Assembly: GCF_964204645.1 (NCBI RefSeq)
Contig: NC_134030.1
Coordinates: 14,384,110-14,448,109, forward strand
DNA length: 64,000 nucleotides
Origin: Tubulanus polymorphus
Taxonomy: Eukaryota > Animalia > Nemertea
Direction of reading: 5' to 3'
Translations under genes and position numbers: made by a program
Part shown: positions 17,888-62,239 of the stretch, in pieces
Numbering within the stretch: position 1 is the first letter of the stretch
Layout of the letters: every line of letters starts with the position of its first letter
The notes under the pieces: generated by a model
What the model was told of the DNA's origin: nothing
The model's input: the letters and a program-made list of their open reading frames with translations, nothing else
The model's database searches: none

Positions 17888-19141
17888 CTAGGGGTCCAGG
17901 GACACCATGCCCACTTGGGAAGTGGTTTCAAATGCTCAACAATCTAACAATTTCAATATTCAACGCCCCCTGGTGACCATATACAGAATACAATGACCTT
18001 GAAACTCACCAAAATCATAGAACATGTCAGCAGCTACGATTTTGTAATTGATTGTGATAACAAAATATGCCTCGTTACCAATTTAATATGGAAATACTAA
18101 GTCATTCTACTATTCAACGCCCCCTGGTGACCATATTCAAAACCCAATGACCTCGAAACTCACCACAATCATAGAATATGTCACGAACTACAACTTTGCA
18201 ATTGATCATGGTAACAAAATATGCCTAGGTACCAATATAATAAGGAAATACTAAGTTATTCTACTATTCAACGCCCCCTGGTGACCATATAGAAAAACTT
18301 ATGTCCTTAAAACTCGCAAAAATCATAGATGATGTCATGAGCTACAACTTTCCGATTGATTGTGGTTACAAAATATGCATTGATACGAATATAATAAAGA
18401 AATGCTAAGATATTGTATTATTCAACGCCCCCTGGTGGCCATATGCGAAATCCAATTACCTTGAAACTCACCACAATCATAGAACACGTTATGGGCTACA
18501 ACTTTCTAATTGATTGTGGTATCAAAATACGCTTAGGTATCAATATAATGTGGAAAAACTTTTTCCAACTTATGAATGAGTACTGGTGACCCCAAGATGG
18601 CCGCCAATTGCGTCATAATTGGCCGATGAAAAATACCTGTCTCAGGTATAAAACATCCCTTTCCAAAGAATACCCATCACAAATTGTAATGAGAAATGGC
18701 AAACCAGTAGGAAGCTACAGGACTCAGAATTCTGGCCAAAATTAACATTTTTGGGCACTAAAAAGGTCATAGGACGGCCATCTTGAGTCCGACCGACCCA
18801 ATTTTTGTTATGTTGATGGGCCCTGGGGGGATTCACATATATCCGAAAGATCAAGGTAAATGATTGAAGCGTCTTCAAAATTTCCCTCAAAAAGTTCAAA
18901 AATGTGTAAAAAGTGCTGATTTTGGTGAACAACAATGGCTGCCAGTCGGCCATCTTGATTCTGACAGGGCCAGTTTTTGGGCTGAAGATGTGTCTAGGGT
19001 AGATACATGTGTAACCCAAATATCAAGACATTACCTTGAAGCGTCTTCAAAACTTCCCAAAATAACTGGATTCCGTCTACGGACGGACGGACGAAAAGTG
19101 AACGCAATAGCCCGCTGGGACTAAAGTCCCAAGTGGGCTAA
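17888..19141. mobile_element. Complete pearl/HINE-type non-autonomous Helentron element with four 154-bp core repeats
   Basis: CTAG start, subterminal IR pair GCCCACTTGGGA / TCCCAAGTGGGC, core motif at 17964, 18118, 18272 and 18426 (period 154), (ACGG)n, terminal hairpin, A/T-run flanks, no TSD seen. Confidence 0.88.
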
Positions 19142-23250: not shown

Positions 23251-25998
23251 GTCTGACCTGTCGCCTGTTTATTTACCCTTAAGAGTGAGACAAATCTGAG
23301 AACGTACGCACATATCCGGACCATTTTCGGTAAGTCGGGATAAAACGCTGGATTTACTTCTTTAATGATTCCGAATTTCTGGCGGGCTGGAGAAGCGATT
23401 GCGCTTCCTTGGGAGTCTAATGATTCCGTTTCAGTTAACAGGATTGTTGAATCGAACAGTTCGCAAATGGGCCAATCGCATTGGCCTAACCAATGTGGTC
23501 CCTTCCACCATAGGTCGCAGTTCTGCAAGTCGGCTGCGCATATTCCACGAGAGAGAATATCGGCCGGATTATCTTTCGTCGGGCAGTACTTGAATTCATC
23601 AATATTTACCGATTTGATTTGAGTTACTCCGTTTGATACAAAAACAGGTAGTTTCTTGTCGCTATGAATCCAATGTAATACGATTTGGCTGTCGGACCAC
23701 AGAATAGTTTTAGATATATTTATTTTCGACGCGAGAGCACGATAGACATATGTGATAAGCCTGGCAGCAGTAAGCGCTGCAAGCAGCTCGAGCTGAGGAA
23801 TGGTAAGTTCCTTTACCGGAGCGACGCGCGTTTTTGCCATCACTAAGGATGTGTCGGTGAGGTTACGTAAGTAAACAACAGATCCATAGGCTTCCTTGCT
23901 ACTATCTCCGAACGCGTGGATCTCGTTGTCTGATCTACGGTCAGATTCCTCGAAGTATTTCCGTGAAATGTGGATCGCTGAAGCGTCGCAAAGATCAGTC
24001 GCAATATGTATCCATTTAAGCTTTAGGTCATCGGGTATGCGTTGGTGGTCCCAATCGAATTTCTCTTTCCACAGTTCCTGAATAAAGATCTTAGCCCTTA
24101 TCTGAACTGGGGCTAAAAACCCCAATGGGTCATATACTTTCGAAGCTCGACTGACGACAGCATCGCAACAGCATCGCATGACAGTTCGTTTTTAAGCTTA
24201 TGTGGAAATCCGATAGAATCCCGTTGGGTGTTCCGGATTAAGCCAAGAATTTTCGATTCGGTATTTTAGTCGGCCACTTCATCGGTTTCTAGTTGTTCAC
24301 GTAATTTTCCGGAGTTAGTTGCCCAGGATCGTAGGTTGAGTCCGGCGGATTTGGTAATGTCGACGGATTCGTGGTAGAATCGAAGCGCTTCGGTATCGGA
24401 GCTTACACCCGTGACAACGTTATCAACGTATATGTTATCAGAGATATCCCGAGCGGTTTCCGTATCTATACTGCGTAAATGTGATTTCACGGTGACGTTT
24501 ATGATGTATGGGCTGCAAACCGCTCCGAAGAGAACTGAACGGAATTGGTAAGCCTTCAATTCACTTTCTGGGTTTGATTGGTCGGAAAGCCAAAGAAATT
24601 TTGTGAATTTTCGATCGTTTGAATCAAGGCCGATTTGTAGGAAAGCTTTCTCAATGTCTGCAGATATCGCGAATTTGTGTAATCGGAAGCGTATTATGAT
24701 CGACGCTAGATCGTTAAGCAATGACGGTCCAGTCTCAAAGCAATCGTTCAAACTAGGTTCATGTCCGGACTTACAGCTGCAGTCGAATACTATTCTCATA
24801 GGTGTGGTTAGTGAGTCCCTTTTTACCCCACGGTGAGGTAAGTAGTGTCCCGAGTGATCGTCGTTTTCGACTTCTTCGATTAAGCCACGTGATAGTTGTT
24901 CGTTGATAATATTATTGTAGACGCTTCGCATTTCCGGTTCAAGTCGGCGGATCATACCACGTGTTCGTCTCTCAGCCACCATTCGGTTGGTTGGCAAGGG
25001 GGCGTGGTCATCTTTCCAGGGTAGCTTCGCGGTGTATTTTCCATTTTCAAAGCGCAAGTGTGTCTGACAGTAATTCGACATGGATTTGCTGACTGCAGTT
25101 CCGGTTGTATGCGCGTCATCTTTGATCCCGATTGTTTCCAGGTTCCAGAAACGTTGTAGATTTATTTCCTCGCGTTTGTTTTCGACAAATCGACGGCACA
25201 ATCAGGGTTCGAATTTTCAAATCTCCATCACTGGTATTTAGCTTTATGGTCCCGACGTCTAAAGACCGAGCAGGTCCTGATATACCACCAAAGGCCGATA
25301 TCTGAATGTCTTCGGACTCATTTGACACTAGATGTAAGGCTTTTGCCATTTTCTGTGTGATGAAGGATCTTTGGGCACCTTCGTCAAATGAGATGATCGC
25401 ATTAATTGATGTCGATTCAGAAGAGATACGGGCGAACGCTGTTTTTAGTAGAACGGCTCCTCCAGTAGGAGTTTTACTTCCACTTGATGGGTGGTAGTTT
25501 GTGAGTCAGTGTTAGTTCGTAGCGGTTGCGTTGCCATGTGGTTTCTCGTCGGGTCACATAGAGATGAATGATGTTTCCGTTGGCAATTTCGGCATCTGTA
25601 TTTGGATTTGCAGTCGGCGGAACGGTGTGAACCTAAACAGTTAAAGCATAAGCGGTCTCGAATTACTGTTTCTCGCCTTTTTCCGGGTCCGTTGACAACG
25701 CGACATTCGTGATAAATTATGGTTGTTCGATTTACAGTAAGCGCAATTAGATCGTGAGAATGTTTTCTGCTTGGACGTAGATACACGGGTATGGAAGGCT
25801 GCGGTTGGGTAAGTGAGATCGTGGTCTTGAAAGTCGTTGTTTAGCGTATCCCCCGCGCGAAGGGCTTCGATTTCTTTTGGTAGCGAAGTTCTGAGGTCGA
25901 CGATAATCCAACCATTGTTTCCGCGTTGTCTCGTCATTTGTTGGCGGATATGACCGGGTAACTTATCCAATACGACAGGCACGAGTAAATCTCCGTAT

Positions 25999-27245
25999 TG
26001 ATCCACAGCTAGATTTTCGTAGTATTTGAAAATGTTTCGTAGTATTTAGAAATGTTCTTAATGTTGTTTCCGTATGCGTGGGGGTTACGTTAAAGCCGTC
26101 AGACAAGAACGTACTAGTAGTAAGAATTACGAAAGTTCTTGTTTGATGCTTTCATCTACCAACGCAAACCATAAATCAGTCTATAAACAACAATTCTTTC
26201 TCGGTTCTTCTGCTGTGAGATCTGGCAAACATTCAGAAAATCTTTATATAAAACTTTTAAATAGTTGGAACCATATTTGGTTGGGTCGGAACAATGGAGT
26301 GTATTTATAATGAGGCTCGTGAAGGGATCACGCTGATACTTGATGATATTCCCGGCTACTTTCCGTAAAAGGAAAAACCGGATGTTTAGGAAGATGTGGT
26401 TGTTTTGCTTATCCTGTATTAAAATAGAATTAGTTAAATTGTAGATAAAATAATTAGTATAAGTATTTCAAATAATTTAAGAATTGATAATCAATCACAA
26501 TGTATTCCGAATCGTAGTTAATTATAATAATTAAAAAAGAAACAATGAATTTGTACTGTAATTAGAAAAGAAAACAAAGTTTTGAAAAGATATTTAATTT
26601 GAGTAATCTAGATGTTGTTAAAGAACAAATTGTTAATAATCGCTAATGTTTTAGAAAAATTAATTTGTGTTAAATGTTAAAACTAGCTGTCTGAAGTTTC
26701 TGTTGTCTGTATGCGCTCGTTGGTAATTCACAGACAATAGCTGCTCTCTCAACAACGACTAGCAAGGAGTGAGTAAATCACAACGCGTCATGACAGGAGG
26801 GTTGGAAGGAAAAAGTTAGTTTAGCAAATCAGTTTTGAGATCAGCGAATCATTAAGGCCAAATTCTATATGACCAAAACAGTCATGACAGTAAGGTTGCT
26901 GCTCCTTGCCAAAAGTCGAGTGGGAGAGTATTTTAAGAATGCCGATTCTTTCTATAAAAGGGACCCGCATCTTGAGAGAGCAGTCACTCGAGAGAATCTG
27001 TACCTTAGTAAGACGAGTGTCGACAGCAGGACAGGAGAAGCTTCGGAACGATAGGGATTCATATACAATAGGGATTAGGAAAATCATTCTGTGTTCAAGG
27101 TAAATAAAATATATTATCTTCAATATTATCATCCGGTATTTCAATTTATACATTCGGATTTGTGCACGGACACGTTCTCTCGCCAGGGCCTTACTCAAGT
27201 ACTTTATAGATAACGATTAAAGAGAGGATTGTGACCGGCGTATCA
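25999..27245. mobile_element. Solo LTR, ~1.25 kb, 4-bp TSD (Gypsy-like), copy A
   Basis: TGAT...ATCA termini, TSD GTAT; removing it restores gag KPEETYGDLLVPVVLDKLP; near-identical to 52743-54003. Confidence 0.92.
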
Positions 27246-28007
27246 GTATGTTTCTTCTGGTTTACCCAGAGATCTTAAACCTCTTATGTAAGCCACAAAA
27301 CGGTCGTAAAAGTTACGTAATGATTGGTGGTTGGCGCTAGGTGGTTCAAGCTCCCACAGCGCGCGCATATATGCGCCGATGATAACACGAGGTTTACCGT
27401 GTCGATCTTTGAGTAATTCCAACGCGTGATAGTAGTTACCATCGGTGAGTGATAATCCGTTTATCACCTGAGCCGCTTCGTCCGTTGTTTGAGCCAGTAC
27501 GTATTGGAATTTCTGGACGTCAGTAAGGTTTTCGTCCATCCCAACTGCCGAATTAAAGGAATCGAAGAATTCCAACCAGTTCTGTATATTTCCATCAAAT
27601 TTCATTAAGGAGAGTTTTGGTAAGTTGACCGTTCGTCGCGAGTTACGGTCGCTGCGCGCAGACTGATCTGAGATCAAGCTGGTATCGTGTTGATCTGCAG
27701 CTAACCTTCTATCGATTTGTCTTTGTAGTACCCGGAAATTCTCTTTGATATCCGTTAGGTATTCGTCTGCGTCCGTAATAAATGTATCCAAGTCCGCCTC
27801 CTCGACGGTCAGTAGGAGTCTTTGATCTAGATCGGCGAGGATGTTAATTTTCTCCTTGTGCGTCTCCATGGCTGCGAGTAGCTGATCGCGATCGAATTCC
27901 GAGATCGCGTCGTTTCCAAGAATAGTTTGAATTTTAGAAATTGTTTTAGTCAAAAGTCCTCTGTTCGTCGTGCGGTTTTGCATCAAGCGTTTGTCCTGAG
28001 CTGCCAT

Positions 28008-31470: not shown

Positions 31471-32571
31471 CAACGATTGTAAACTTTATTCAGTCAACTG
31501 TATTAAAACATCAATTCACTAAATACATCTCAGAAAGGATGTCCCCTGTTCCTTCAGAATGTTCTGTATTCGGTGACGGTCGCGGCAGAGCTCACCGCGC
31601 ATTAGATTTCGATCCTTGTTAGTTTGTATGGCGAGTACTAGGTAAATTATCAGCGGATTTATCTGATACTTACGCAATTAATGTCTTTCTGTCCATTGTA
31701 AAGGATAATTTTGATATCGCTCGAAGCTAAGCAAATTCGAAGAGACGCCATCTTAACCAGGAAGTAACTTGCTACTTTACATGTTTGACCTTATTTGATA
31801 TGGATCGAAAATGTAAAATAGAGGATGGGCACAACCGGTCTCTAATTGAAGATAGAGACCGGTAACCAGTCTATTTTAACCTTAAGAATTTGAAACAAAT
31901 ATAATATCTACATTGGCGTTAAATGTCAGTCCAAGTTCAAGTCCGATTCCGTAATTTCCACTCCCATCATGCACCACGAAAAGCCGCCATATTTTTCATG
32001 TTGCTTCACTTCAACTAGTTTTTTTGAGGCGACTAGTCAAAAGTTTTGAGCTACTACGATCGTAGATGAATCTAAATGCTTCAAGTGTTTAGAGTTCTTG
32101 TAACCAACCCCACACCTCCCCTACTCCGTCTGACCTGTCTGTGGTACAAAACCTATCATTCAAAAAACTAACAGTAAATTCTGCCCCAGCCGTTTTTAGG
32201 CCCCTCCTCGTTCGATCTTTGAACTTTCTATACTGACCACGCCACCCGTAAGTTTATTTAAAAAGCTCCTCCATTCAACCAACGAATTGTATGATATTAT
32301 CCTTAAATTGAGGGACGATTAATTGAAAATTGCCGAGATTTTGCATTACTGTTTGACATTATTTTTTGATATCTCTCACATACATTTTCTTAAGAGAGTC
32401 CCTGTCAGAATAGTACGTACATTTTACTTTGACCCCTCCCCGTACAAAGTTTTACATTACCGTATTTGTTTACCCTTCCCCAAAAACCGTATGTACTATT
32501 TGAAAGCTCTCTTATAACATTTACCACGAACGCATGCATCGGCAGCCCCCAGAGCCATTCCGAGAGGCTCC

Positions 32572-32629
32572 GTTGAAAGGTCGAAAAATAAATTCTCGCA
32601 CACTCGAATTTATTTTTCGACCTTTCAAC
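32572..32629. repeat. Terminal fold-back hairpin of copy 1 (24-bp perfect stem, 10-nt loop)
   Basis: GTTGAAAGGTCGAAAAATAAATTC-TCGCACACTC-GAATTTATTTTTCGACCTTTCAAC. Confidence 0.95.
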
Positions 32630-32721
32630 CTTTGATACGAAACAACATATTCCCTATTACTCTTAAAATATAAAAATGAATAACTTCTAAAATCAATTTT
32701 AATAAAAAATTTGATATTAAA

Positions 32722-33050
32722 ATGGAGAGTAAACAAATACACAGTGAGAACAACAAATCATATCTAGATAGAATAAAAGATACTACAAATGTCAAATCAG
32801 TAGATTATAAATTTAAGAAGTTAACAGAATTAACAATTCATAAGAAATATTTAATTACAAATATTAATACAGTTACTACCAAATATGGAGATAAATAAGT
32901 TATCCACTTAGAATATGAAGGATTAAAAGGAAATAAATATAAATTCAGAACATATTTACCAGATAGATTTCATAGATTATCAAGTGAAGATTTTGAAGAA
33001 TTATGTTCTGGTGATTTCTATTTCATATATAAGGGTAAGAATGAAAAATT
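32722..33050 (+). pseudogene. Disrupted paralogue of the 117-aa gene at 61886 (not in the ORF track)
   Basis: MESKQIHSENNKSYLDRIKD...FRTYLPDRFHRLSSED.EELCSGDFYFIYKGKNE, with an in-frame TAA near 32896 and a truncated end. Confidence 0.9.
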
Positions 33051-33060
33051 GGATATTAAA

Positions 33061-36000
33061 ATGGAAGCAAATAAGTACTACTGTTCAACATGTAAAGTTG
33101 ATATAGATAAATCTCAAAAAGCAAGACATAATAAAACTAAAACACATTTAGAGAATAAATTAAAGTTAAAATATAAAGATGATATATTAGAAACTAAATT
33201 AGATGAATTGAAGAATGAAAAAGAAACATACAAATGTGATACATGTAATCAATCATTCAGTGATAAAAGATATTATAAAGAACATTTAAAATCTAAAAGG
33301 CATATTAGAAATATGAATAATGATATTTTAGGTGAAGATTATTTTGATAATGATAATAATAAACCGAAGACAATTATAAGAATAAAAGATACTCTAAATA
33401 ATAAGAAATCATATATGGAAAATGTTAGAAATTATATTTATTCATTAGATAATAAAAAAAGAAATATAAATAACCGAAGCATTTGAAAGTGATATTGGAC
33501 CAGCTGCTATTGAATTTAAATTTCATAAAGGCAAAACATTAGAAGAAAATAAAAAACATTTAGAAAATATGAAAAATATTATAAGAATAATTACAGACGT
33601 AGAATACCCTAAGTTTAGTATATCGGCTAAAGTTAAATTTCTAAAATCTGAAGATAAACCAATATATAATATAAATTCTCATTCACAACATATCATTTCA
33701 AACCAGCATATAGATGATAAATTAGGTAAATGTTATAATGAAATGAAAAATAAGATAGAAGAGAAATATTTTGAAGGATCAGGTTTAATATTTGATGAAA
33801 TAATATTTACGACTTTACATGTATACAATACAAAATATAATAAGTTAACTAAATCAAAACCAATAGATGAAAATAATTAATCATATTATAAAGATGATAA
33901 TATAAATGGAACAAGTTATATCAAATTACCATTTAAAACTAATGCTGTTATAAATGTACAAAATTCTGATGATAAATGTTTTCTATGGACAATTATAAGT
34001 TGCTTACATCCAACAGAAGATATTACACATAGTTTTAGATTATCAAATTATATACAATTTGAAAATAATTATAGGATAGATAATTATCCTGTTAGAATTA
34101 AAAATATCCCAAAAATAGAGAGATAATAATATAAAGATAAATGTGTTTGATTTAGTGAAATTACCAAAAACAAAAGGTAATAATATTAAACATTTTACAT
34201 TAGAGCCTTTATACCTAACAAAAGATTATGATTCAAATGATGTTATAGATATAATATATTATGAGAATCATTATATGTGGATTAAAAGAATTGATTTATT
34301 TTTCAAATCAGAAAATGATTTTGATAATAAAATATATCTATGTAGAAAATTTATAACTAAATTCAGAACCGAAAGTGCATTATCAAATCAAAAACAATTA
34401 TGTGAAAATCATGATTATTGTAAAATAGCTTTACCAAATGAAAAGGATAAAGTATTAGAATTCGAAAATATGATTTCAAGAATAAAGTACCATCTGTAAT
34501 ATATGGAGATTTTGAATCACTCAATAAAGAATTAACTGATCAAGATAGAAAAGAAATATATTATAAAAGAAAGAAATTAAATTCTGAAAATGATATAATT
34601 GATTATTCAGATCCTCTAATAACAAATACAATTAAAAAGATTCATCAATCAGCTGCAGCTTTCGGGTTATATATTAAATCTGATTATCCAGAACTAATCA
34701 AAAGTGAATATTATAATTATAGAAATGAAAATGTAATCAATCATTTTTGTGACTTATTAATTGAGTATGAAATCAAATTTAGTAAACTATTAGATACAAA
34801 TAAAGAAATAGTTATGACAGAAGAAGATAAAGAAGAATTTGAGTTTGCTGATAAAAGTTATTATTGTGAAAAGATATATAATCTTAAAGATAAAAAAGTT
34901 AGAGACCATGATCATTTGAATGGAAAGTTTAGAGGTGCAGCACTTGAGAATTGTAACTTACAAGCTAAGAAAATTAACTTTGTTCCAGTAATATTTCATA
35001 ATTTATCAGGGTATGATGCTCATTTATTTATCAAACAGCCATGCCAAAAAATATAAGAGATCAATAATGAAATAGTAAGAGTAAATTTAATTAGATCAAA
35101 GGATAAAATACCAACATATAAATTTAAGATGTTAGCTAAAACATCTGAGAATTATATATTTTTCCAATTTGGGTGTCTAAGATTTATAGATTCATATAGA
35201 TTTTTAAGTTGTTCATTAGATAATTTATCAAAATCATTAGTTGATGATGAATTAAAACTATTAAAACAACACTATCCAAATAATTATGATTTTCAATTAA
35301 TGAGATATAAGGGAACAATTCCATATTCATTTTATAAATCGCATAATGATTTTAACAATAATGAATTATTAAAAGAACAATTCTATGATGAATTAAAAAA
35401 TGAATATGTTAAAGATGAAGTCTATGATAGAACATTGAATATTTGGAATCATTTTAGAATGAAAAATCATGGAGAATTAGTAGATTTATATCTAAAATCA
35501 CTTGCGTTATTATTAACTGATATATTCGAAAGGTTTAGAGATGTAAATCTAAAATATTTTAATATTGATCCATGTCATTGTTATTCTAGTCCAGGATTAA
35601 CTTGGGACTGTGGTTTAAAATTTACAGATATAAAAATGGATTTGTTAACAAATATAGATCAATTATTATTATTTGAAAAATCTATAAGAGGAGGCGTTTC
35701 AGGTGTATTAGGCGATTGATATGTCAATGTAAATGATAACCCTGGTTATAAGTTATTATATATAGATGCAAATAATCTATATGGTTGGGCAATGATGGAA
35801 CCTCAACCTTATGGAGTATTTGAAATAACTGAAGTTTTACAACATGAAAATAATGATAAATTTGATTGGAAGAAAAGAATTTTAGATATTGCAGATGATT
35901 CAGATACTGGTTACTTCTTTGTTGTAGATTTAGAATATCCTGAAGATAAAAAAATTTAAATCTAGAAATCTAGCTTACTGTCCCAAACATAAAACTGTAA

Positions 36001-37057
36001 CACATGAAGAATTATCAAATTATCAAAAAAGAATTAAACCTGAAAATCATATTCATACAGAAAAGTTAATGGTAACTCGGGAAGATAAATATAATTACGT
36101 AGTACATTATAGAATGTTAAAATTCTATTTGAATCAAGGAATGGTTCTAAAAAAGTACATAGATATATTTCATTCAGTCAATCTAAATGGTTAGAAAAAT
36201 ATATAGATTTTAAGACCAAACAGAGAACTAAAGCTTAAACTGATTTCGAGAAAGATTTCTTCAAGTTAATGAATAATGCATTCTATGGTAAGACTTGTGA
36301 AAATATTAGAAATAGAAATGATATTGAGTTAGTTAGTAATGGTAAAAGAATTAGACATTTACAAACATATCCAAAATTTATTGGTTACAGAATATTTGAT
36401 GAAAATTTTGCAGCTGTAAAAATGAAAAGAACTTCTATCGAATTTAATAAACCAATTTATGGTGGTGCTTCAGTTTTAGAAATATCAAAATTATTAATGT
36501 ATGAATTTTACTATAACGTATTACAACCTCATTTTGGAGAAAAGCATATAGAAATCTTATATTTTGATACCGACAGTTACATATTAAAGATAAAAACTAA
36601 TAATATCACAGATGATTTGAAAACATTAAAACATCATTTTGATTCCAGTAACTATCCAAAAGCTCATGAATTGTTTAACAATGATAATAAAAAGGTGCCA
36701 GGGAAGTTTAAGGATGAATTAGGAGGTGAAGAAATGATAGAGTTCATTGGAATTCGATCTAAAATGTATAGTTATAAAACCAAAACTCATGAATCAAAGA
36801 AATTGAAAGGAATTATCAAAAGCGTAGTAGAAAAGAATATTCATTTCAAAGATTACGTCAATTGTATATTCAATGAAGAAGTTAGAAAACACAAGATGAA
36901 ATGTTTAAGATCTGAGTACCACGAGATGTTTATTGAAGAAATTGAAAAGGTAAGTCTAAATCCATTTGCTTATGGCTGCAATTTAGAAGAATACTTAAAA
37001 TTTAAAAGAGAAGAAACAAAAGAAAAGGAAATAATGAACAGGATTATAACGTGTTAA
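33061..37057 (+). pseudogene. Family-B DNA polymerase, protein-primed type, with N-terminal C2H2 fingers and an endonuclease VII-like insert (frameshifted)
   Basis: VIYGDFES, RDHDHLNGKFRGAA..NCN, IFHNLSGYDAH, RFIDSYRFL, YIDANNLYGWAM, KLMNNAFYGKT, YFDTDS. Confidence 0.93.
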
Positions 37058-37086
37058 TCAAATTTTAATAAAAATATGTATCATAA

Positions 37087-37727
37087 ATGGAAAGTACACA
37101 AGCACAAATTATCAATATTACAAACAATAATAATGGTGTTATAAATATATATCAGAAGACATGTTGCAAATGTAAAATAAGTAAGCCATTTACAGATTAT
37201 TATAAACGTAAGATTGGTAAAGATGGTTTACATCATAATTGCAAAAGCTGTTATAATCAGAATAATCAACAATATTATAGAGATAATATTGAAGCACGCA
37301 ACGATAAAATCAAGCAATGGAAGGAAAATAATCCAGAACGCGTTAAAGCGTATCAAAATAGATATCATAAAGAAAGATATCAAACAGATTTTAATTTTAA
37401 AATGAAACAATGTCTAAGTAATAGATTAACAAAATTATTCAGTAAACAAGCGCATTCAGTTACACTCTCTAATTTATTGGGGTGTTCAGATGAATTTCTC
37501 AAATCATGGAATGTATATCAATTCGACGATAAAATGAATGAAAAAAACTATGGTGAATACTTTCATATTGATCATGTGTTGCCGATTTCTAAATTCAACA
37601 TGAATGATGAACACAATCAGAAGTTGATATGGAGCTGGAGAAATTTAAGGCCTCTTGAAAAGAAGGAAAATATAATTAAATCAAATAAACTAGATTTTCA
37701 GTTATATTTGGATCAGCTGTGTAAAGC
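37087..37727 (+). CDS. HNH-type (homing-like) endonuclease with N-terminal CxxC...CxxC; the ORF then reads on into a LINE fragment to 37872
   Basis: KTCCKC...CKSC; LLGCS.EFL; NYGEYFHIDHVLPISKF...WRNLRPLEKKENIIKSNK, as in HNH nucleases of large DNA viruses. Confidence 0.75.
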
Positions 37728-38136
37728 TTATTTCAGAACTGTAACTAGAAAATCTTCTGTCAAAATATCCGGTCCCCTATTATGGAATACTCTATCTGAA
37801 TCAATTCAAACTATTCAAAGCGAACCTGCCTTTAAGCGTACCTACATGAAATCATTATTCAACACTTTGTAAATTTTCATTCTATACAAACCTATGTTAA
37901 TGTGTAATATGTGAAACTTTTTTTCTTTTCTTTTCGCCTGTTAATTACTTGTGTGCATGATGTGTGAGTGTGATGAATGTTGTGTGGATGCTTCTGGGTG
38001 ATACGGCTAAGATAGACTGTTTCAGTCTCTCCGTGTAGCCCCATTATCCTGTTACATTTTTTTCGTCTAATCATACTTATTATATCGTTCAATAATGTAA
38101 CATCGTAATGAAAATAAATTTCAATTTCAATTTCAA
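37728..38136 (+). mobile_element. 5'-truncated CR1/L2-group LINE (ORF2 C-terminus and 3' UTR)
   Basis: GPLLWNTLSESI...S..AFKR motif; AATAAA followed by a (TTTCAA)n tail. Confidence 0.75.
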
Positions 38137-39213: not shown

Positions 39214-42200
39214 TCCGGCATCAGACCACAATTAGGTTAGTAGCTCGAAGATGCGTTGGGCCGGACCCCAAAAATAGTACCTAGAGTGAAGAAGAGGTCC
39301 CCCATTAATGTTGCTATAATTTCTGCAAATGGGATAGGTAACGAATTTCGGTTATATGTATGAAATCCATTGATCCTGAGGGACAGATTGATGATGAAAT
39401 AAGGGATTCCCTGGACTTTTTTTGCTTGGAGTAAGAGTACCAAACACGGTGGGGGATTCCCTTAGATATTTGGCTCGGATGTACTGGCATACCTGTACTG
39501 GGATACCCCTCCTTTCTAAAGGTTTGATTATTTCAAAAGTTAGGTTGGGAATGTGGGGCGAAAACCACTTCAATGCGTAACTAAGATGTTGGCCTATAAG
39601 CCATAAGCAGGATTTCCCATGGATTTACACGCTTATATATGAACTAAACTCTCGAATTTCTTGTTTTTACTATAGGATATAGAAGATTTTGGAATAGTGG
39701 TCTGAGCTCTGACAGCCAATACAGCCAAAATGACAAATTTTGAGGTTTTGATGAAATTTCACAAATAATTTTTATATTATACATCTTTTGCACATAGGCC
39801 CTATAAGTCGTCTTGAGGCATTCATTGAGACCTAATTTGCTGAATTTAATCAGCTTCATGGTAGGATTTGGTAATATCTTTGCTTGAAGAAGGCTTGAAT
39901 CGCAGATTTCGGTCAACTTTTAGGCATAGATCGTAAGATATTTTCTCGTAGGCTCGGTCTAGGCTCATATCCCATTTCATAAAGGCCATCCTTGCCCATG
40001 CAGAATAATCACATTAATTCAGCTTTCTTTGATTTAGTTATCTAGTTTGGCTGACTTTTTGGTGCCAGATACTGTCAGGAATTTAAGGGGTAGAGGAAAT
40101 GCATATTTTCGTTGAAACCATGGCAACCGAAAGGACATTGTCAGAGGCCAGTTGTGATATTTTTTCTAACTAGTACTGGTGACAGCTACGCTTGGTATAT
40201 AAAAGGCAAAGGCCTGTGGACGCAGTAGGGTGCATTCGAATTAGGCCTTGTGGGCAAGAAAACGCCAAATCTAAAGGTTTCAGCCAATTCGATGATGTAA
40301 ATGGCATTTTTTTCAGAAAATGCTTAAAGATTGTGTTTCTGATTTTTATCCATAGCCATATATTTATATCCATCAGTGAAAAAACCTATAAAGTATTCAG
40401 AAAATGCTGTATAATTGTTTTATTCATATTTTGAAATGAATGTTTGACTTAGATGATATTGATAGAAAACTTGGATTTTGTTTGGGTACTAGTCAGGCAT
40501 CAGACCACAATTAGGTTAGTAGCTCGAAGATGCGTAGGGCCGGACCCCAAAAATAGTACCTAGAGTGAAGAAGAGGTCCCCCATTAATGTTGCTATAATT
40601 TCTGCAAATGGGATAGGTAACGAATTTCGGTTATATGTATGAAATCCATTGATCCTGAGGGACAGATTGATGATGAAATAAGGGATTCCCTGGACTTTTT
40701 TTGCTTGGAGTAAGAGTACCAAACACGGTGGGGGATTCCCTTAGATATTTGGCTCGGATGTACTGGCATACCTGTACTGGGATACCCCTCCTTTCTAAAG
40801 GTTTGATTATTTCAAAAGTTAGGTTGGGAATGTGGGGCGAAAACCACTTCAATGCGTAACTAAGATGTTGGCCTATAAGCCATAAGCAGGATTCCCATGG
40901 ATTTACACGCTTATATATGAACTAAACTCTCGAATTTCTTGTTTTTACTATAGGATATAGAAGATTTTGGAATAGTGGTCTGAGCTCTGACAGCCAATAC
41001 AGCCAAAATGACAAATTTTGAGGTTTTGATGAAATTTCACAAATAATTTTTATATTATACATCTTTTGCACATAGGCCCTATAAGTCGTCTTGAGGCATT
41101 CATTGAGACCTAATTTGCTGAATTTAATCAGTTTCATGGTAGGATTTGGTAATATCTTTGCTTGAAGAAGGCTTGAATCGCAGATTTCGGTCAACTTTTA
41201 GGCATAGATCGTAAGATATTTTCTCGTAGGCTCGGTCTAGGCTCATATCCCATTTCATAAAGGCCATCCTTGCCCATGCAGAATAATCACATTAATTCAG
41301 CTTTCTTTGATTTAGTTATCTAGTTTGGCTGACTTTTTGGTGCCAGATACTGTCAGGAATTTAAGGGGTAGAGGAAATGTATATTTTCGTTGAAACCATG
41401 GCAACCGAAAGGACATTGTCAGAGGCCAGTTGTGATATTTTTTCTAACTAGTACTGGTGACAGCTACGCTTGGTATATAAAAGGCAAAGGCCTGTGGACG
41501 CAGTAGGGTGCATTCGAATTAGGCCTTGTGGGCAAGAAAACGCCAAATCTAAAGGTTTCAGCCAATTCGATGATGTAAATGGCATTTTTTTCAGAAAATG
41601 CTTAAAGATTGTGTTTCTGATTTTTATCCATAGCCATATATTTATATCCATCAGTGAAAAAACCTATAAAGTATTCAGAAAATGCTGTATAATTGTTTTA
41701 TTCATATTTTGAAATGAATGTTTGACTTAGATGATATTGATAGAAAACTTGGATTTTGTTTGGGTACTAGTCAGGCATCAGACCACAATTAGGTTAGTAG
41801 CTCGAAGATGCGTAGGGCCGGACCCCAAAAATAGTACCTAGAGTGAAGAAGAGGTCCCCCATAAATGTTGCCATAATTTCTGCAAATGGGATAGGTAACG
41901 AATTTCGGTTATATGTATGAAATCCATTGATCCTGAGAGACAGATTGATGATGAAATAAGGGATTCCCTGGACTTTTTTTGCTTGGAGTAAGAGTACCAA
42001 ACACGGTGGGGGATTCCCTTAGATATTTGGCTCGGATGTACTGGCATACCTGTACTGGGATACCCCTCCTTTCTAAAGGTTTGATTATTTCAAAAGTTAG
42101 GTTTGGAATGTGGGGCGAAAACCACTTCAATGCGTAGCTAAGATGCTGGCCTATGAGCCATAAGCAGGATTTCCCCTGAATTTACGCGCTTATATATGAA

Positions 42201-42269
42201 CTAAACTCTCGAATTTCTTGTTTTTACTATAGGATATAGAAGATTATGGAATAGTGGTCTGAGCTCTGA
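39214..42269 (+). repeat. Head-to-tail tandem array of a ~1279-bp unit (2.4 copies), possibly a non-autonomous Helitron concatemer
   Basis: Units at 39214-40492, 40493-41770 and 41771-42269; junctions read ...GTACTAG|TCAGGCATC; duplicated ORFs in the track confirm near identity. Confidence 0.9.
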
Positions 42270-42672: not shown

Positions 42673-43050
42673 GGGTGTTACTAAAACTATGCACTACTAA
42701 AACGAAGACCGAAGACCTATGCACTTTGCGAGACTAAAACTATGCACTACTAAAACGAAGACCGAAGACCTATGCACTTTGCGAGACTAAAACTATGCAT
42801 GACTAAAACGAAGACCGAAGACCTATGCACTTTGCGAGACTAAACCTATGCATGACTAAAACGAAGACCTATGCACTCATTAGAAATCATAACTAGGGGC
42901 GCTATCTGTATATTCAACCACCTCTGTCGATGAGTATAGGCAATAGGGACCTACTCGATATAAACATACATAAGGAAACGTAAAATGTTCGTTTATTTTT
43001 CTCGGGTGCATAGGTCTTCGTTTTAGTAGTGCATAGTTTTAGTAACACCC
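42673..43050. mobile_element. MITE with a TIR-derived 53-bp internal tandem array
   Basis: 38-bp TIR GGGTGTTACTAAAACTATGCACTACTAAAACGAAGACC and its reverse complement ending at 43050; 53-bp unit ~3.7 times; a further partial unit at 43062-43102. Confidence 0.85.
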
Positions 43051-45317
43051 ACACACGCAAAACTAAAACTATACATGACTAAAACGAAGACCTATGCACT
43101 TTTACAAAACTTACTTCAAACATGGAATTATTCACGCAACCACTTCGGGGAAGCTCCAGTTACGACTATGCCAACAAATGTACGTATTTACGACGAATGA
43201 AACGAAGTTTTCATCTATAAATGTGCGATTTTTATTATATTCGATTTGCTGCGTTGTCGTTGCTAATACATTATTTTCATCAATACACGTTTACGATTCT
43301 ATTTTACGAAGCAAAGTTAGCCTATATATTATAAGGAACAGATTAAGGGATTTATTTTCGATTTCGTTTCACAATTCACGTGGTCAGAATGGTCCCTACA
43401 AATTCTCGTTTACTATGCTGTTCTGAACTTATATTATATATTTGTCGAACACATTACGAGGCCGTTGCTTCAGAGAATAATGGCAATTTAACGTAACGAA
43501 ATATCCATTATGGAAGGCCGAACGTAGAGTTTACTATGGTGGCTACAAAGTGTCAGTCTGGACAACAATAGCATTTGGTCCGGATATACGGAAAAGAATA
43601 TATAACCGATCTATGAATGAATTATCATGGAAATATGTTCCAAGGGTTATTGCGCAACGCTCCGTCACTATTATAACTATCCCGGTCATAATTCAGTACG
43701 GTATGCCCTACCGTAATAAATCAAAAACAAAATACTACCTGGTACTCGAAAATTCCTAAATGCATCTTTCACATACTTTGGAAAATATTCAACTGAAATA
43801 ATTTGAAAGTTTCCTCAATTTATGTTGATAACTGCTACTGCCTACCGGCAAATGTACTATATGCCTGACCATGAGCCAAAATGTCTTTCTAGAATACACG
43901 TTCAGTACAGCAATAAAATTGGTCAGACAATTGAAGTAACATATTCCCCCAAAGCATGTTTAATCACGTTATTTACAGTATTTTGACTCAACTATTTCGT
44001 TTACCGGTACGAATACGCTAGAAATATTCGTTACGGTATAACGGTACTAACCGTAGAGCTTGCCGACTAACGCCAGTTCTACTGCAATTCCTCTGATTAC
44101 GGAGCCGGATCTAGGTCGAGGTCCAGGCAGTTATCCAGAAAAATCTAGACGAGGGGATTACTAAAATTGAAAAATGTCAGTCGAAATCAGTTTCAGTTGT
44201 TCTACAATTAGGCGTTATTGTAACTGTTTTAATTCGGGTACCGGTAGAGATTTTTAACTTTGGTCTTTCTTCAATCCCGAAGTCGGAAAATTCCAAGGTC
44301 CCGATTTTTTCAGTTCGTTTTCCTATCAAAATCTGTCTCAATTCGGATTCTAGAAATCGGAAATTCGGCTAAGTGGGCTAGAATATATGTCCCGAACGTT
44401 TCAAAGCAATGCATTTTTTCCATCTCTAAGTCAGTTCTTTTTAAAAAGATCATCGTTACTGGCGCGCGGTGTCTATGGTAGATTGATTTTTCTGTCGACG
44501 GACAGTTAAGCACATGTTTACAATATTAGTCGGCTATAAATTCTTCATTTTTACAGATTGAAACTCAACTTAAATCTCACCTGTTTACATCAGCCCCGTC
44601 GTTATATTGAAAGAAGTTAAACGTTTTCAGAAGAACCAGAGCGATACAAAAGCGAGGTAAATTTTGATAAGGGATTGAATTATGGAATTTCGGTTAAACA
44701 TGCCAATAGGCCCTACAACAATTACATATCGGTATAGGAAATCTAAGAAAACGAAGATCATAGCTGTAAAACGAATTAAATCGATAGATGGGCACCTTCT
44801 TTTTGAAGGATATCCAAAAGAAGAAAAAGAAGGTAATGTCATCGGTGCAGTAGACATTCTAAATTAAATTGGTATATACTAAACCCATGTAAGTCATTTA
44901 TGCCATTGTATAATTATTTACATTTTCTAGACGGAAACAAATTGGTCGTTCTGACGAAGATCACAAACCTGGGTCAATTGATAAAGCCAACATGGCGTAA
45001 AGGATTGTCTGTTCTTGTCAATAACAATTATGATTTAATTAAATAATATAATGTTCAATCATGTTTTATTCAATCATTTATATTCAAGTTAATTTGATAG
45101 TGATCGAAAATCAATGGATTTCTATCAGTGATTTCAGGATATCATGTTTATTTGTTTTTTAAAAGGAGCATTTATTATCTATTCACGTATTCCTAAATCT
45201 ATAACATCTAACAAAATGCCTTATGCGCTTACAAAGATTACACCTAGATATCAATGCATGACACTTGTGTGAATAGACCTGATCACTTACCACACCGTTC
45301 ACATTTATCATGGAAGT

Positions 45318-45488
<171 letters not shown>

Positions 45489-55066: not shown

Positions 55067-55069
55067 TTT

Positions 55070-57287: not shown

Positions 57288-57554
57288 AGTAATAGGGATA
57301 ATAGGCTTTCAAGCCAAAGGTCGAACGGTCGAGCTCGTAAAAATGAAAAACATGAAAATAATAACAATTTCTACTTGAATTACTCGCGAAACTCATTAAA
57401 ATGAAAAATAAATTCTCACACGCTCGAATTTATTTTTCATTTTTATGAGTTTCACTCCTAATTCAAGTAGAAATTGTTATTATTTTTATGTTTTTCATTT
57501 TTTACTCACCCGCCCGTTCAACCTTTAGCTTGAAAGCCTATTATCCCTATTACT
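57288..57554. repeat. 267-nt imperfect terminal palindrome (fold-back hairpin) of copy 2
   Basis: AGTAATAGGGATAATAGGCTTTCAAGC... pairs with ...GCTTGAAAGCCTATTATCCCTATTACT; loop TCACACGCTC at 57416-57425. Confidence 0.97.
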
Positions 57555-57815: not shown

Positions 57816-60800
57816 ATGGAAGCAAATAAGTACTACTGCCCAACATGTAATATCAATATACATAAATCCCAAAAATCAAGACACAATAAAACTAAAACAC
57901 ATTTAGAGAATAAATTGAAACTAGAATATAAAGATGATATATTAGAATCTAAATTAGATGAATTAAAGAATGAAAAAGAAACATATAAATGTGATACATG
58001 TAATCAATCATTCAGTGATAAAAGATATTATAAAGAACACTTAAAATCTAAAAGTCATGTTAGAAATAAGAATAATGATATTTTAGGTGAAGATTATTTT
58101 GATAAAGATAATGATAAGAAACAGAAGACAATTAAAAGCATAAAAAATAAATTAAACAATAAAAGACCATACATGGAAGATGTAAGAAATTATATTAATT
58201 CATTAGATAATAAAAAAGATATAGAAATAACCGAAGCATTTAAAAGTGATATTGGTCCAGCAGCTATCGAGTTTAAATTTCATAAAGGAAAAACGTTAGA
58301 AGAAAATAAAAAACATTTAGAAAATATGAAAGAAATAATAAAAATAATAACTGATGTTGAATATCCTAAAATCAGTATATCAGTTAAAGTAAAGTTTATA
58401 AAATCTGAAGATAAACCAATATATAATATAAATTCTCATTCACAACATATTATATCTAAACAACATATAGATGATAAATTAGATAAATGTTATAATGAAG
58501 TAAAAACTAAAATAGAAGAGAAATATTTTGAAGGATCTGGTTTAATATTTGATGAAATAATATTTATGACTTTACATGTTTATAACACAAAATATAATAA
58601 GTTAACTAAATCGAAACCAATTGATGAAAATAATGTATCATATTATAAAGAACCAGATATTGAAGCATCGAGTTATATTAAACTACCATTTAAAACTAAT
58701 GCTGTAATAAATGTACAAAATGAAGATGATAAATGTTTTCTATGGGCTATAATAAGTTGTTTACACCCAGTTGAAGATTATAAACAACATAATTTTAGAT
58801 TAACTCATTATAAACCATTTGAAAATAATTATAAGATAGATAAGTATCCTGTTAGAATTAAAAACGTCCCAAAGATAGAAAGAGATAATAATTTAAGAAT
58901 AAATGTATTTGATTTAATCAAATTGCCAAATACAAAAGGTAACAATATAAAACATTATACATTAGAACCTTTATATCTATCAAAAGATTATGATTCAAAT
59001 GATGTTATAGATATATTATATTATGAGAATCATCATATGTGGATTAAACAAATAGATTTATTCTTTAGAACAGAAAGTGATCACCATAATAAAATGTATC
59101 TATGTAGAAAATGTTTACTTAAATTCAGAACTGAAAGTGCATTATTAAATCATAAACAATTATGTGAAAATCATGATTATTGTAAATTAGTTTTACCAAA
59201 TGAAAAAGATAAAATATTAGAATTCAAAAAATATGATTACAAAAATAAAGTACCATTTGTAATATATGGAGATTTTGAATCATTAAATAAAGAACTAACT
59301 GATCAAGATAGAAAAGAATTATATTATAAAAGAAAGAAATGAAATTCTAATGAAAATGATTTTTCAGATGAACCACCAAAAACAAATACTATTAAAAAGA
59401 TTCATCAATCAGCTGCTGCTTTCGGGTTATATATTAAATCTGATTATCCAGAACTAATTGAAAGTGAATATTATCATTATAGAAATGAAAATGTAATCAA
59501 TCATTTTGTGACTTATTAATTGAATATGAAATAAGATTTAGTAAATTATTGAATGCAAATATAGAAATTATAATGACAGAAGAAGATAAAGAAGAATTTG
59601 AGTTTGTAGATAAATGTGATTATTGTGAAAAGATATTTAATTATAAAGATAAAAAAGTAAGCGAACATGATCCTTTGAATGGAAAGTTTAGAGGCGCAGC
59701 ACATGAGAATTGTAACTTACAAGCTAAGAAAATTAACTTTGTACCAATTATATTTCACAATCTATCAGGATATGATGCACATTTATTTATCAAACAGTTA
59801 TGCCATAAAATAGAAGAAATTAATAATGAAATAGAAAGATTAAATTCAAATAGATCAAAAGGTAAAATACCAACTTATAAATTTAGAATGTTAGCTAAAA
59901 CATCTAAGAATTATATATCATTCCAATTTGGTTGCCTAAGATTTATAGATTCATATAGATTTTTAAATAGTTCATTAGATAACTTATCAAAATCATTAGT
60001 TGATGATGAATTAAAGATATTAAAACAACACTACCCAAATAATGATGATTTTCAATTAATGAGATATAAAGGCGCAATTCCATATTCATTTTATAAGGAT
60101 CATAATGATTTCAATATAACTGAATTATTGAAAGAACAATTCTATGATGAATTAAAAAATGAATATGTTAAAGATGAAGTATATAATAGAACATTGAATA
60201 TTTGGAATCATTTTAGAATGAAAAATCATGGGCAATTAGTAGATTTATATTTTAAATCAGATGTATTATTATTAACCGATATATTCGAAAGGTTTAGAGA
60301 TGTAAACCTAAAATATTTTAATATTGATCCATGTCATTGTTATTCATCACCAGGATTAACATGGGATTGTGGATTAAATTTTACAGATATAAAAATGGAT
60401 TTGTTAACAAATATAGGTCAATTATTATTATTTGAAAAATCTATAAGAGGAGGAGTTTCAGGTGTATTAGGTGATAGATATTTCAATGTAAATGATAACC
60501 CTGGATATAAGTTATTATATATAGATGCAAATAATTTGTATGGTTGGGCAATGATGGAACCACAACCTTATGGAGTATTTGAATTAACTGAAGTTTCACA
60601 ACATGAAAATAATGATAAATTTGATTGGAAGAAAAGAATCCTAGATATTGCAGATGATTCAGATACTGGTTACTTCTTTGTTGTAGATTTAGAATATCCT
60701 GAACATATTAAATTTAAATCTAGAAATCTAGCTTACTGTCCAGAACATAAAACTGTAACACATGAAGAATTATCAAATTACCAAAAAAGAATTAAACCTG

Positions 60801-61871
60801 AAAATCATATTCATACAGAAAAGTTAATGGTAACTCAAGAAGATAAATATAATTATGTAGTACATTATAGAATGTTAAATTTTTATTTGAATCAAGGAAT
60901 GGTTCTAAAAAAAGTACATAGATATATTTCATTTAGTCAATCTAGGTGGTTAGAAAAATATATAGATTTTAACACCAAACAGAGAACTGAAGCTAAAACT
61001 GATTTCGAAAAAGATTTCTTCAAGTTAATGAATAATGCATTCTATGGTAAGACTTGTGAAAATATTAGAAATAGAAATGATATTGAGTTCGTTAGTAATG
61101 GTAAAACGATAAGGCATTTACAATCATATCCTAAGTTCATTGGTAACAGAATATTTGATGAAAATTTAGCCGCAGTTAAAATGAGAAGAACATCAATGAA
61201 ATTTTAAACCAATCTATGTTGGCGCTTCAGTTCTAGAATTATCAAAATTACTAATATATGAATTCTATTATAATGTATTACAACCACTTTTTGGAGAAAA
61301 ACATATAGAAATATTATATTTTGATACCGACAGTTACATATTAAAGATAAAAACTGATAACATAACTGATGATTTAAAAACATTAAAACATCATTTTGAT
61401 TTCAGTAATTATCCTAAAGATCATGAATTTTTTAGCAATGATAATAAAAATGTTCCAGGGAAGTTTAAGGATGAATTAGGTGGTGAAGAAATGATAGAGT
61501 TCATAGGTATTAGATCTAAAATGTATTCATATAAAACTAAAGAACATGAAGCTAAAAAGTTAAAAGGAATAACCAAAAATGTAGTAGAAAAGAATATTCA
61601 TTTCAAAGGTTACATCAATTGTATATTCAATGAAGAAGTTAGAAAACATAAGATGAGATGTTTAAGATCTGAAGATCATGAAATGTTTATTGAAGAAATT
61701 GAAAAGATAAGTCTAAACCCATTTGATGATAAAAGATATATTTTAGATGATGGAATTCATACAGTTGCTTATGGATGTAATTTAGATGAATACTTAAAAT
61801 TTAAAAGAGAAGAAACAAAAGAGAACGAGATAATGAAAAGAATTCTAACGTGTAAATCAAATTTTAATTAA
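57816..61871 (+). pseudogene. Family-B DNA polymerase, protein-primed type, with zinc fingers and an endonuclease VII-like domain; one stop (59340) and frameshifts near 59.5 and 61.2 kb
   Basis: CPTC..H...H and CDTC..H...H fingers; DDKCFLWAI; VIYGDFES; CDYC...EHDPLNGKFRGAAHENCN; FHNLSGYDAH; SDVLLL; YIDANNLYGWAM; KLMNNAFYGKT; YFDTDS; PFDDKRY. Confidence 0.95.
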
Positions 61872-61885: not shown

Positions 61886-62239
61886 ATGGAGAGTAAACAA
61901 GCGCACAGTGAGAACAACAAATTATTTCTAGATAGAATAAAAGATATAACAAATGTAAAATCTGTAGATTATAAATTCAAAAAGTTAACAGAATTAACAA
62001 TCCATAAGAAATATCTAATTACAGATATGGTTACAGTTACTAATAATTATGGAGATAAATTAGTTATACACTTAGAATATGAAGGATTAAAAGGAAATAC
62101 ATATAAATTCAGAACATATTTACCGGATAGATTTCATAGATTATCAAGTGAAGACTTAGAAGAATTATGTTCTGGAGATTTCTATTTCGTATACAAAGGT
62201 AAGAATGAAAATGGGCACCATGAAATAGATTTCGAATAA
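61886..62239 (+). CDS. 117-aa protein, possible OB-fold ssDNA-binding or replication accessory factor
   Basis: Intact ORF directly after the polymerase; beta-rich pattern FKKLTEL...Y.I...YGDKLVI.L...YLPDRF; function is inference. Confidence 0.6.
   Translation: MESKQAHSENNKLFLDRIKDITNVKSVDYKFKKLTELTIHKKYLITDMVTVTNNYGDKLVIHLEYEGLKGNTYKFRTYLPDRFHRLSSEDLEELCSGDFYFVYKGKNENGHHEIDFE

What the first reader, a model, noticed from the sequence alone, without database searches (positions are those of the whole stretch)
32572..32665. Copy 1 has the same hairpin apex but a shorter stem and a different breakpoint
Seen: both copies share the apex GAAAAATAAATTC-loop-GAATTTATTTTTC. The loops are TCGCACACTC vs TCACACGCTC, and both continue into TTCAACCTTT...CCCTATTACTCTTAAA. 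Copy 1 lacks the middle of the stem on both arms yet pairs perfectly, and its outer arm stops earlier. Inference: structure is maintained rather than sequence, and variable outer-arm length fits integration of a closed hairpin end opened at variable positions instead of integrase joining at a fixed TIR tip.
Basis: partly seen in the sequence, partly recalled or inferred. Interest (0 to 1): 0.7.

Follow-up and report, generated by a model that had tools for sequence, protein, structure and literature searches.

The report
Fold-back ends of a Polinton family
The hairpin is the end of a multi-copy, virus-like Polinton element whose copies join the host DNA at one fixed base, and this copy has simply lost its outer tip; the fold-back ends themselves are unusual for such elements and likely act on single-stranded DNA during the element's own copying.

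Summary
In detail: copy 1 (32572-32629) shares the apex of copy 2's 267-nt terminal palindrome, is 72/73 nt shorter on both arms, and its outer arm is 32-35 nt short. In raw reads of the same species 2,011 reads join unrelated flanks at one tip (57288, 5'-AGT; the next base by chance), other short-stem copies keep a whole outer arm, copy 1's left flank is another repeat, and the loops are point variants, not flip/flop isomers. Copy 1 is a tip-truncated member of a short-stem subfamily of a Polinton/Maverick with a protein-primed polymerase (terminal-protein-like and vOTU domains kept). What survives is of some interest: the family's ends are fold-back palindromes with mirrored stem-length variants and fixed polarity, also seen in some distant relatives; such ends were reported before mainly in protist elements without this polymerase. 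Target-site duplications and the right ends could not be tested. New variant of a known kind.

The parts
32150..32574 (.). Host repeat flanking copy 1; joins the element inside its tip-side arm
   Evidence: Read depth about 150-300 in X5 and many variant reads; three contigs (X2 record 12, X4 records 17 and 18) match it up to 32574
32575..32595 (+). Remnant of copy 1's tip-side arm (32572-32574 pair too but also fit the flank); 32-35 outer bases missing
32596..32605 (+). 10-nt loop of copy 1
32606..32661 (+). Inner arm of copy 1 (56 nt), ends on the complement of the AGT tip
   Evidence: 381 reads with unrelated letters behind 32661
32722..33047 (+). ORF-X of copy 1 (unknown function), with a stop near 32896 and run into the polymerase frame
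   Evidence: 90% like 61854-62211; 62% like an ORF at the same place in relative L005
33061..37057 (+). Broken protein-primed DNA polymerase B gene of copy 1 (several stops and frameshifts), with an endonuclease VII-like insert
   Evidence: 88.7% like copy 2; PF02945 E 7.7e-4, below cut-off; stop-free pieces
37087..37728 (+). ORF with an HNH-like motif (motif recalled), cut off after residue 214 by unrelated DNA
   Evidence: 62% like the ORF that follows the polymerase in L004/L005
57288..57415 (+). Tip-side arm of copy 2; fixed first base of the family (5'-AGTAAT)
   Evidence: 1,635 + 376 reads with unrelated letters before 57288/57287
57416..57425 (+). 10-nt loop of copy 2
57426..57554 (+). 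Inner arm of copy 2; pairing stops exactly at the tip; C/T-rich unpaired bubbles
57816..61871 (+). Broken protein-primed DNA polymerase B gene of copy 2: zinc fingers, terminal-protein-like domain, vOTU, polymerase
   Evidence: PF03175 E 2.1e-15; model and fold search; conserved S241, C307, H406
61886..62239 (+). ORF-X of copy 2, here downstream of the polymerase

Best explanation
The hairpin is the left end of a multi-copy Polinton/Maverick-type element whose copies join host DNA at one fixed 5'-AGT tip, and copy 1 is a short-stem subfamily member missing the outer 32-35 bases, likely lost by a deletion after insertion; the fold-back is likely made and renewed by arm-to-arm copying on single strands during protein-primed replication, and likely kept because the folded strand rebuilds a double-stranded copy of the tip. 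Shown: fixed tip, several mirrored stem lengths, one polarity, kept priming domains, truncation of copy 1 (about 0.9). Inferred: insertion by an rve integrase (seen only in a close relative). Inferred and open (about 0.45): a strand started at the protein-primed tip folds at the short apex and copies itself back to its own first base, which would put the end of the pairing exactly at the tip, copy length changes into both arms, and leave no flip/flop; the folded end would then serve as a local duplex tip for the integrase or the origin on displaced single strands.
For: Fixed tip: of 16,850 X5 reads laid on 56900-58400, 1,635 have unrelated letters before 57288 (agreement 0.34) and 376 before 57287 (0.36; 19%, as expected when the flank's last base happens to match); depth at 57298 is 2,943. 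The same tip is seen for copy-1-type arms: 381 reads diverge behind 32661 (0.38). Short stem is a subfamily: joint 57330-57403 in 115 reads from 71 starts and in contigs of X1-X3; 11 contigs and 54 reads (35 starts) continue copy-1-type stems outward into the mirror of the inner arm. Mirrored variants: 57 nt left (66 reads) with 58 nt right (91 reads); apex-less form on the same axis (187 reads). Polarity: no loose-end row behind 57554 reaches the six listed for X5 (lowest 365 reads), so reversed ends are under about 15% of tip junctions; loops differ by two transitions and are not reverse complements. Priming kept: residues 148-260 match the Y-family little-finger fold (Z 8.1, rmsd 2.7, 94 aligned) and 292-414 viral OTU (Z 7.6, rmsd 3.4, 101 aligned), with invariant S241 (in a Gly-flanked loop), C307 and H406 in 46 sequences, as described for Polinton polymerases (PMC11071308). 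Relatives: L005 has the same inner-arm landmarks and copy 1's gene order; L004 adds an rve integrase 2.15 kb downstream; L027 has a host-flanked AGTAGT tip with a 124-nt fold-back and falls in the same clade.
Against: No right end, no target-site duplication and no integrase of this family were seen (window ends at 64000; no genome held). L007, a closer relative than L027, keeps a similar tip-side arm but no long fold-back (z = 0.04), so the palindrome is not needed in every member, or L007 is itself deleted. An asymmetric variant (57343-57453, 160 reads, X5 only) breaks the mirror rule. Full re-copying of one arm would erase the bubbles, yet bubbles recur at similar places, so copying must be patchy or the bubbles selected. 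Both read tables list only the best-supported rows (742 and 497 loose-end rows hidden), so rare other breakpoints are not excluded. No read was seen to span copy 1's own junction; an assembly join is not excluded. Fold Z-scores of about 8 are middling.
Confidence: 0.45

Rival explanations
1. Same fixed-tip Polinton and truncated copy 1, but the fold-back is a self-priming end: the 3' end of a displaced strand folds back and primes second-strand synthesis, and the closed end is later opened in a way that keeps one polarity, perhaps by the endonuclease VII-like domain of the polymerase.
For: The 3' end of a strand would pair exactly at the tip. This is the model proposed for palindromic virophage/PLV ends (10.64898/2026.07.28.741278). 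Single-orientation hairpins with bubbles are reported for a parvovirus left end (PMC1185569 passages). Endonuclease VII-like insert present (PF02945, below cut-off).
Against: Plain hairpin transfer would give flip and flop ends (reasoning from recalled parvovirus replication); reversed ends are under about 15%. The terminal-protein-like domain and vOTU residues are kept, so self-priming is not needed. L007 lacks the long fold-back.
Confidence: 0.25
2. Same fixed-tip Polinton, but the palindrome is a neutral relic of snap-back copying errors at the end, re-made now and then and not selected.
For: L007 has the tip arm and a 10-bp apex stem without the inner arm; an asymmetric variant is amplified; only 13 of 83 related loci show a strong fold-back.
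Against: Three stem-length variants keep the mirror; paired positions change together between copies 1 and 2; tip, fold-back and a similar loop motif persist out to L027 (39% polymerase identity).
Confidence: 0.17
3. One reading: a covalently closed hairpin end is opened at variable positions on integration, so outer-arm length varies from copy to copy.
For: Copy 1's outer arm is 32-35 nt short and its remaining stem pairs perfectly. Hidden rows of the read tables could hold rarer breakpoints.
Against: 2,011 reads at one tip against a depth of 2,943, and no other junction in the outer arm among the listed rows; short-stem copies keep the whole arm; the tip is the usual Maverick AGT motif (PMC8097293); no flip/flop; copy 1 is old and broken throughout.
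Confidence: 0.04

Closest known systems
Polintons/Mavericks (Polintoviricetes, adintovirus-like) with terminal-protein-vOTU-pPolB
   Same: Protein-primed polymerase with terminal-protein-like and vOTU domains, AGT-type first bases, polymerase next to the end, AT-rich, many decayed copies; rve integrase in a close relative; best viral fold matches are adintovirus and MELD virus polymerases.
   Different: The end itself is a 120-270-nt fold-back palindrome with bubbles; the passages read on animal Polintons describe plain terminal inverted repeats. Tip is AGTAAT, one base off (AGT)2.
Halocafeteria seosinensis virophages and PLV subtype 4 with palindromic TIR ends (bioRxiv 10.64898/2026.07.28.741278)
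   Same: Palindrome at the very end of the element, next to the host junction; hairpin priming proposed there.
   Different: There the palindromes go preferentially with non-pPolB replication genes and are about 52 nt in the example given; here they sit beside a pPolB with its priming module, are longer, and come in mirrored length variants.
Hairpin-ended parvoviruses and poxviruses (largely recalled; one paper's passages seen)
   Same: Imperfect terminal palindrome with bubbles; structure kept over sequence.
   Different: No flip/flop, no Rep or telomere-resolvase gene in the part seen, fixed integrase-type tip.
Integron attC sites and IS200/IS605 ends (recalled, analogy only)
   Same: Folded single-stranded DNA with fixed-polarity bulges and variable stem length used as a recombination substrate.
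   Different: Unrelated enzymes and hosts; no test made here.

Membership tests
Polinton/Maverick | [quoted passage not shown] | tested here: met
   PF03175 E 2.1e-15 on 59573-61204; broken in both copies
Polinton/Maverick | N-terminal terminal-protein-like and vOTU domains | tested here: met
   Little-finger fold Z 8.1, rmsd 2.7, 94 aligned; vOTU Z 7.6, rmsd 3.4, 101 aligned; S241, C307, H406 invariant in 46 sequences. Z values are middling; support rests on the known domain order.
Polinton/Maverick | Fixed 5'-AG(T) first bases | tested here: met
   2,011 reads join at 57288/57287; motif per PMC8097293
Polinton/Maverick | rve integrase gene | tested here: inconclusive
   Not within the window's part of either copy; PF00665 E 6.5e-9 in close relative L004
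Polinton/Maverick | Terminal inverted repeats at both ends | tested here: inconclusive
   Right ends not in the window; end depth about 2,900 against 800-1,540 in the polymerase fits two such ends or short derivatives
Polinton/Maverick | 5-8-bp target-site duplication | not testable with these tools
   Only one end per copy; no genome held; pattern scans found no other copies
Polinton/Maverick | Capsid, packaging ATPase and protease genes | tested here: inconclusive
   ORFs at 62257-63998 have no Pfam hit; 62257-62661 matches unnamed clusters and DUF5901 at 13% of members; the rest of the element is outside the window
Hairpin-telomere replicon (parvovirus/poxvirus type) | Flip and flop end isomers | tested here: not met
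   Loops are not reverse complements; reversed tip junctions under about 15%. Single-orientation parvovirus ends exist, so this does not exclude every hairpin model.
Hairpin-telomere replicon (parvovirus/poxvirus type) | Rep/HUH nickase or telomere resolvase | tested here: inconclusive
   None among the ORFs scanned; most of the element is not in the window
Integration from a hairpin opened at variable positions | Variable outer-arm breakpoints among copies | tested here: not met
Palindrome-ended virophages/PLVs of Halocafeteria type | Palindrome at the element end next to host DNA | tested here: met
Palindrome-ended virophages/PLVs of Halocafeteria type | Preference for non-pPolB replication genes | tested here: not met
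   pPolB lies next to the palindrome

The most novel reading that the evidence does not exclude
Fold-back ends with fixed-polarity bubbles are a widespread, overlooked working part of protein-primed Polintons: on single-stranded proviral or displaced DNA the end folds into a local duplex tip that the integrase (or the polymerase's endonuclease VII-like domain) cuts, which would supply the missing step by which Polintons leave the chromosome.
Probability: 0.2. Interest if true: 0.75.

Novelty: new variant of a known kind. Interest (0 to 1): 0.42.

Why it matters
How Polintons are excised and how their displaced strands are copied is still a model from sequence alone. A high-copy family with a fixed tip, a palindrome that ends exactly at that tip, natural mirrored length variants and no flip/flop gives a population of natural variants on which these models make different predictions, and it extends palindromic ends from protist elements that mostly lack pPolB to an element that keeps its protein-priming module. 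The specific claim given (variable opening of a closed hairpin) is wrong, which lowers the score.

Tried and rejected
No genome is held, so copies could not be aligned end to end. Pattern scans for the apex in viral contigs and for the tip in metagenome contigs found 0 matches. Two further viral-contig scans (alignment A2; integrase of L004) found no relative. Earlier findings of this scan: nothing in three look-ups. Copy 1 as a post-insertion derivative of copy 2: rejected (different gene order, 88.7% identity; copy 1's order is that of L004/L005). Loops as flip/flop isomers: rejected. A second piece of copy 1's tip elsewhere in the window: none (3 matches of the tip motif, all accounted for). 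A 6-bp duplication around the palindromic repeat pair of L054: an AT-rich 6-mer fits one choice of tip only, not counted. Contig-start test: only 2 of 46 contigs that begin 100-1500 nt before the polymerase start with a stem of score 12 or more (1 of 46 at the other end, 0 of 230 interior); absence is uninformative because contigs need not reach the end. Shuffled controls understate the background of fold-backs in real DNA: the window itself gives 12 rows, several in host repeats. Foldseek against solved structures gave no match at E 0.001 or below. Paper 10.1101/2022.05.25.493380 uses 'hairpin' for protein strands, not relevant. The original Polinton paper was not held; Repbase is not searchable here.

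Full report
Observation. The sequence is as described. Copy 1 has a 24-bp perfect stem (32572-32595 with 32606-32629) and a 10-nt loop; none of 200 shuffles folds as well (z -8.7). Copy 2 has a 267-nt palindrome, 57288-57554, paired at 115 of 129 columns (z -25.3). The 13-bp apex arms are the same. Anchored at apex and outer end, copy 1 lacks 72 nt on the tip-side arm and 73 nt on the inner arm; its inner arm (56 nt) is whole and ends at 32661 on the complement of the AGT with which copy 2 begins, while its tip-side arm is 32-35 nt short. The two loops differ by two transitions and are not reverse complements of each other.

What the element is. Both hairpins lie at the left edge of AT-rich islands that carry a broken protein-primed DNA polymerase B gene (PF03175, E 2.1e-15), among BEL/Pao, hAT and Harbinger-type remnants; the host is likely an animal (inferred from these neighbours, not identified). 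The N-terminal frame of copy 2 (508 aa, mean pLDDT 79) has zinc fingers, a domain with the Y-family little-finger fold (residues 148-260; Z 8.1, rmsd 2.7, 94 aligned) and a viral OTU domain (292-414; Z 7.6, rmsd 3.4, 101 aligned), with S241, C307 and H406 invariant in 46 sequences. This is the terminal-protein and protease module described for Polinton polymerases (PMC11071308, sections 7 and 9 read). An endonuclease VII-like insert scores below Pfam's cut-off. Copies 1 and 2 are different subfamilies: 88.7% alike over the polymerase, with ORF-X before the polymerase in copy 1 and after it in copy 2. The closest relatives found (70% identity over the N-terminal frame) lie on metagenome contigs L004-L006 and show copy 1's order: end, ORF-X, polymerase, HNH-like ORF, then an rve integrase.

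Five runs of the same species label were found, four from one study. On 56900-58400, 16,850 of 12.9 million X5 reads were laid at 80% likeness. 1,635 reads carry unrelated letters before 57288 (agreement 0.34) and 376 before 57287 (0.36), against a depth of 2,943 at 57298; no other junction in the outer arm is among the six rows listed for X5, the lowest of which has 365 reads (742 rows over all runs are hidden). That is one fixed tip with many different flanks; for any genome of 0.3-2 Gb it implies hundreds of ends or more (inference; genome size unknown). The tip AGTAAT is one base off the common Maverick end motif (AGT)2 (PMC8097293, passages). Copy 1's short stem is a subfamily trait: the same joint is in 115 reads from 71 starts and in contigs of X1, X2 and X3. 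On 32150-33050 (7,170 reads laid), 11 contigs from three runs and 54 reads from 35 starts continue this stem outward into the mirror of the inner arm, and 381 reads diverge at random exactly behind 32661, the same tip seen in reverse. The DNA left of copy 1 is another repeat (depth about 150-300), matched by three contigs up to 32574, so the outer three 'paired' bases probably belong to it (these contigs end two letters later, so what follows in the repeat is not known). Copy 1 is therefore a truncated copy; no read was seen to span its own junction, so an assembly join is not excluded. Reversed ends would appear as unrelated letters behind 57554; no such row is listed, which bounds them to under about 15% of tip junctions. 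Target-site duplications could not be tested: there is no genome, the right ends are outside the window, and pattern scans found no other copies.

What survives. Structure is kept over sequence. Besides the 72/73-nt variant, reads show a 57-nt left and 58-nt right deletion that mirror each other (66 and 91 reads; between short direct repeats) and an apex-less form on the same axis (187 reads). Against this, an asymmetric joint 57343-57453 has 160 reads, in X5 only. End depth (about 2,900) is two to three and a half times the depth in the polymerase (1,541, 964 and 802 at three places), which fits palindromes at both ends or short derivatives. Among 83 related loci, 13 have a strong fold-back against 1 of 83 shuffled controls (real DNA has a higher background); five of them lie within about 800 nt upstream of the polymerase. 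L027 has a host-flanked AGTAGT tip, a 124-nt fold-back (z -8.4) and a similar loop motif and groups with the window's copies on a FastTree of all 85 segments, midpoint-rooted, support not shown. L021, a distant element with polymerase, ATPase, protease and integrase, begins with a 249-nt fold-back (z -16), at a contig end. L005 begins with part of one. L007, closer than L027, keeps a similar tip-side arm and a 10-bp apex stem but no long fold-back (z 0.04).

Mechanism. Shown: fixed tip, mirrored variants, one polarity, priming domains kept. Inferred: integrase joining at the tip, and loss of copy 1's tip after insertion. For the palindrome I favour arm-to-arm copying on single strands from a protein-primed tip, kept because the folded strand rebuilds a duplex tip: it explains why pairing stops exactly at the first base, why length changes are mirrored, why there is no flip/flop and why a relative can lack the inner arm. 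Self-priming with polarity-keeping resolution (0.25) and a neutral relic (0.17) remain open; the variable-opening model is unlikely (0.04).

Comparison with print. Six searches found one report of palindromic ends in this group: Halocafeteria virophages and PLVs, where they go preferentially with non-pPolB genes and particular integrases, and hairpin priming is proposed (10.64898/2026.07.28.741278, passages and section 7). Passages of PMC10748475, PMC8502044, PMC11131425, PMC8097293, PMC11296320 and PMC4196379 describe plain terminal repeats; their supplements were not read, the original Polinton paper was not held and Repbase is not searchable, so earlier notice in animal Polintons is not excluded. 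The parvovirus, poxvirus and attC comparisons are recalled, apart from the passages of PMC1185569.

Verdict. Real feature, wrong inference: a tip-truncated copy of a fixed-tip Polinton family. The fold-back ends are a new variant of a known kind. Interest 0.42.

Noticed in passing
window 32690-32724, 33040-33063, 37050-37089, 57780-57818, 61850-61888: A shared AT-rich motif precedes several start codons; copy 1's ORF-X runs into the polymerase at this motif, gene order differs between subfamilies, and 24 X5 reads show ORF-X in tandem, which suggests gene shuffling at these motifs.
   Followed up: partly
window 37729-38130: Copy 1's HNH-like ORF stops matching its relative at residue 214 and runs into DNA that looks like the 3' end of a LINE (recalled likeness, not tested).
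   Followed up: partly
window 62257-63017: Two adjacent ORFs in different frames that look like a split minor capsid gene (recalled motif); Atlas hits are unnamed clusters and DUF5901 at 13% of members.
   Followed up: partly
window 63351-63998: Two small hydrophobic ORFs with relatives in L012 and L061; no Pfam family.
   Followed up: partly
window 34245-34341 and 59007-59103: A weak fold-back (about 72% paired) inside the polymerase coding region of both copies.
   Followed up: no
window 57608-57747: Short direct repeats with a GTGTGAG-like core just inside copy 2's palindrome; many subfamilies skip this stretch (joints to 57766-57776).
   Followed up: no
window 57134-57287: Copy 2's flank reads on the minus strand like a BEL/Pao integrase region (recalled motif; rve and DUF5641 at 54157-55113); 365 reads show another junction at 57134.
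   Followed up: no
L054 7073-14499: A 7.4-kb polymerase plus integrase module bounded by inverted repeats that are each fold-backs, inside a larger virophage-like contig; duplication ambiguous.
   Followed up: partly
L002 4657-4840: An internal 184-nt fold-back with a 61-nt tandem of nested small hairpins, 144 nt before the polymerase; may be two ends joined by the assembler.
   Followed up: partly
L007 150-330: Tip-side arm like copy 2's and a 10-bp apex stem, but no inner arm, before an unbroken polymerase frame.
   Followed up: yes
window 1-408, 6489-7330, 17886-18880; 39214-42269; 42673-43100; 45317-45488; 25996-27248 with 52740-54006: A 154-bp satellite in three blocks, a 1,278-bp tandem at 97-99%, 53-bp tandem arrays in inverted arrangement, a long (AT)n run, and a 1.27-kb repeat pair at 97.5%.
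   Followed up: no
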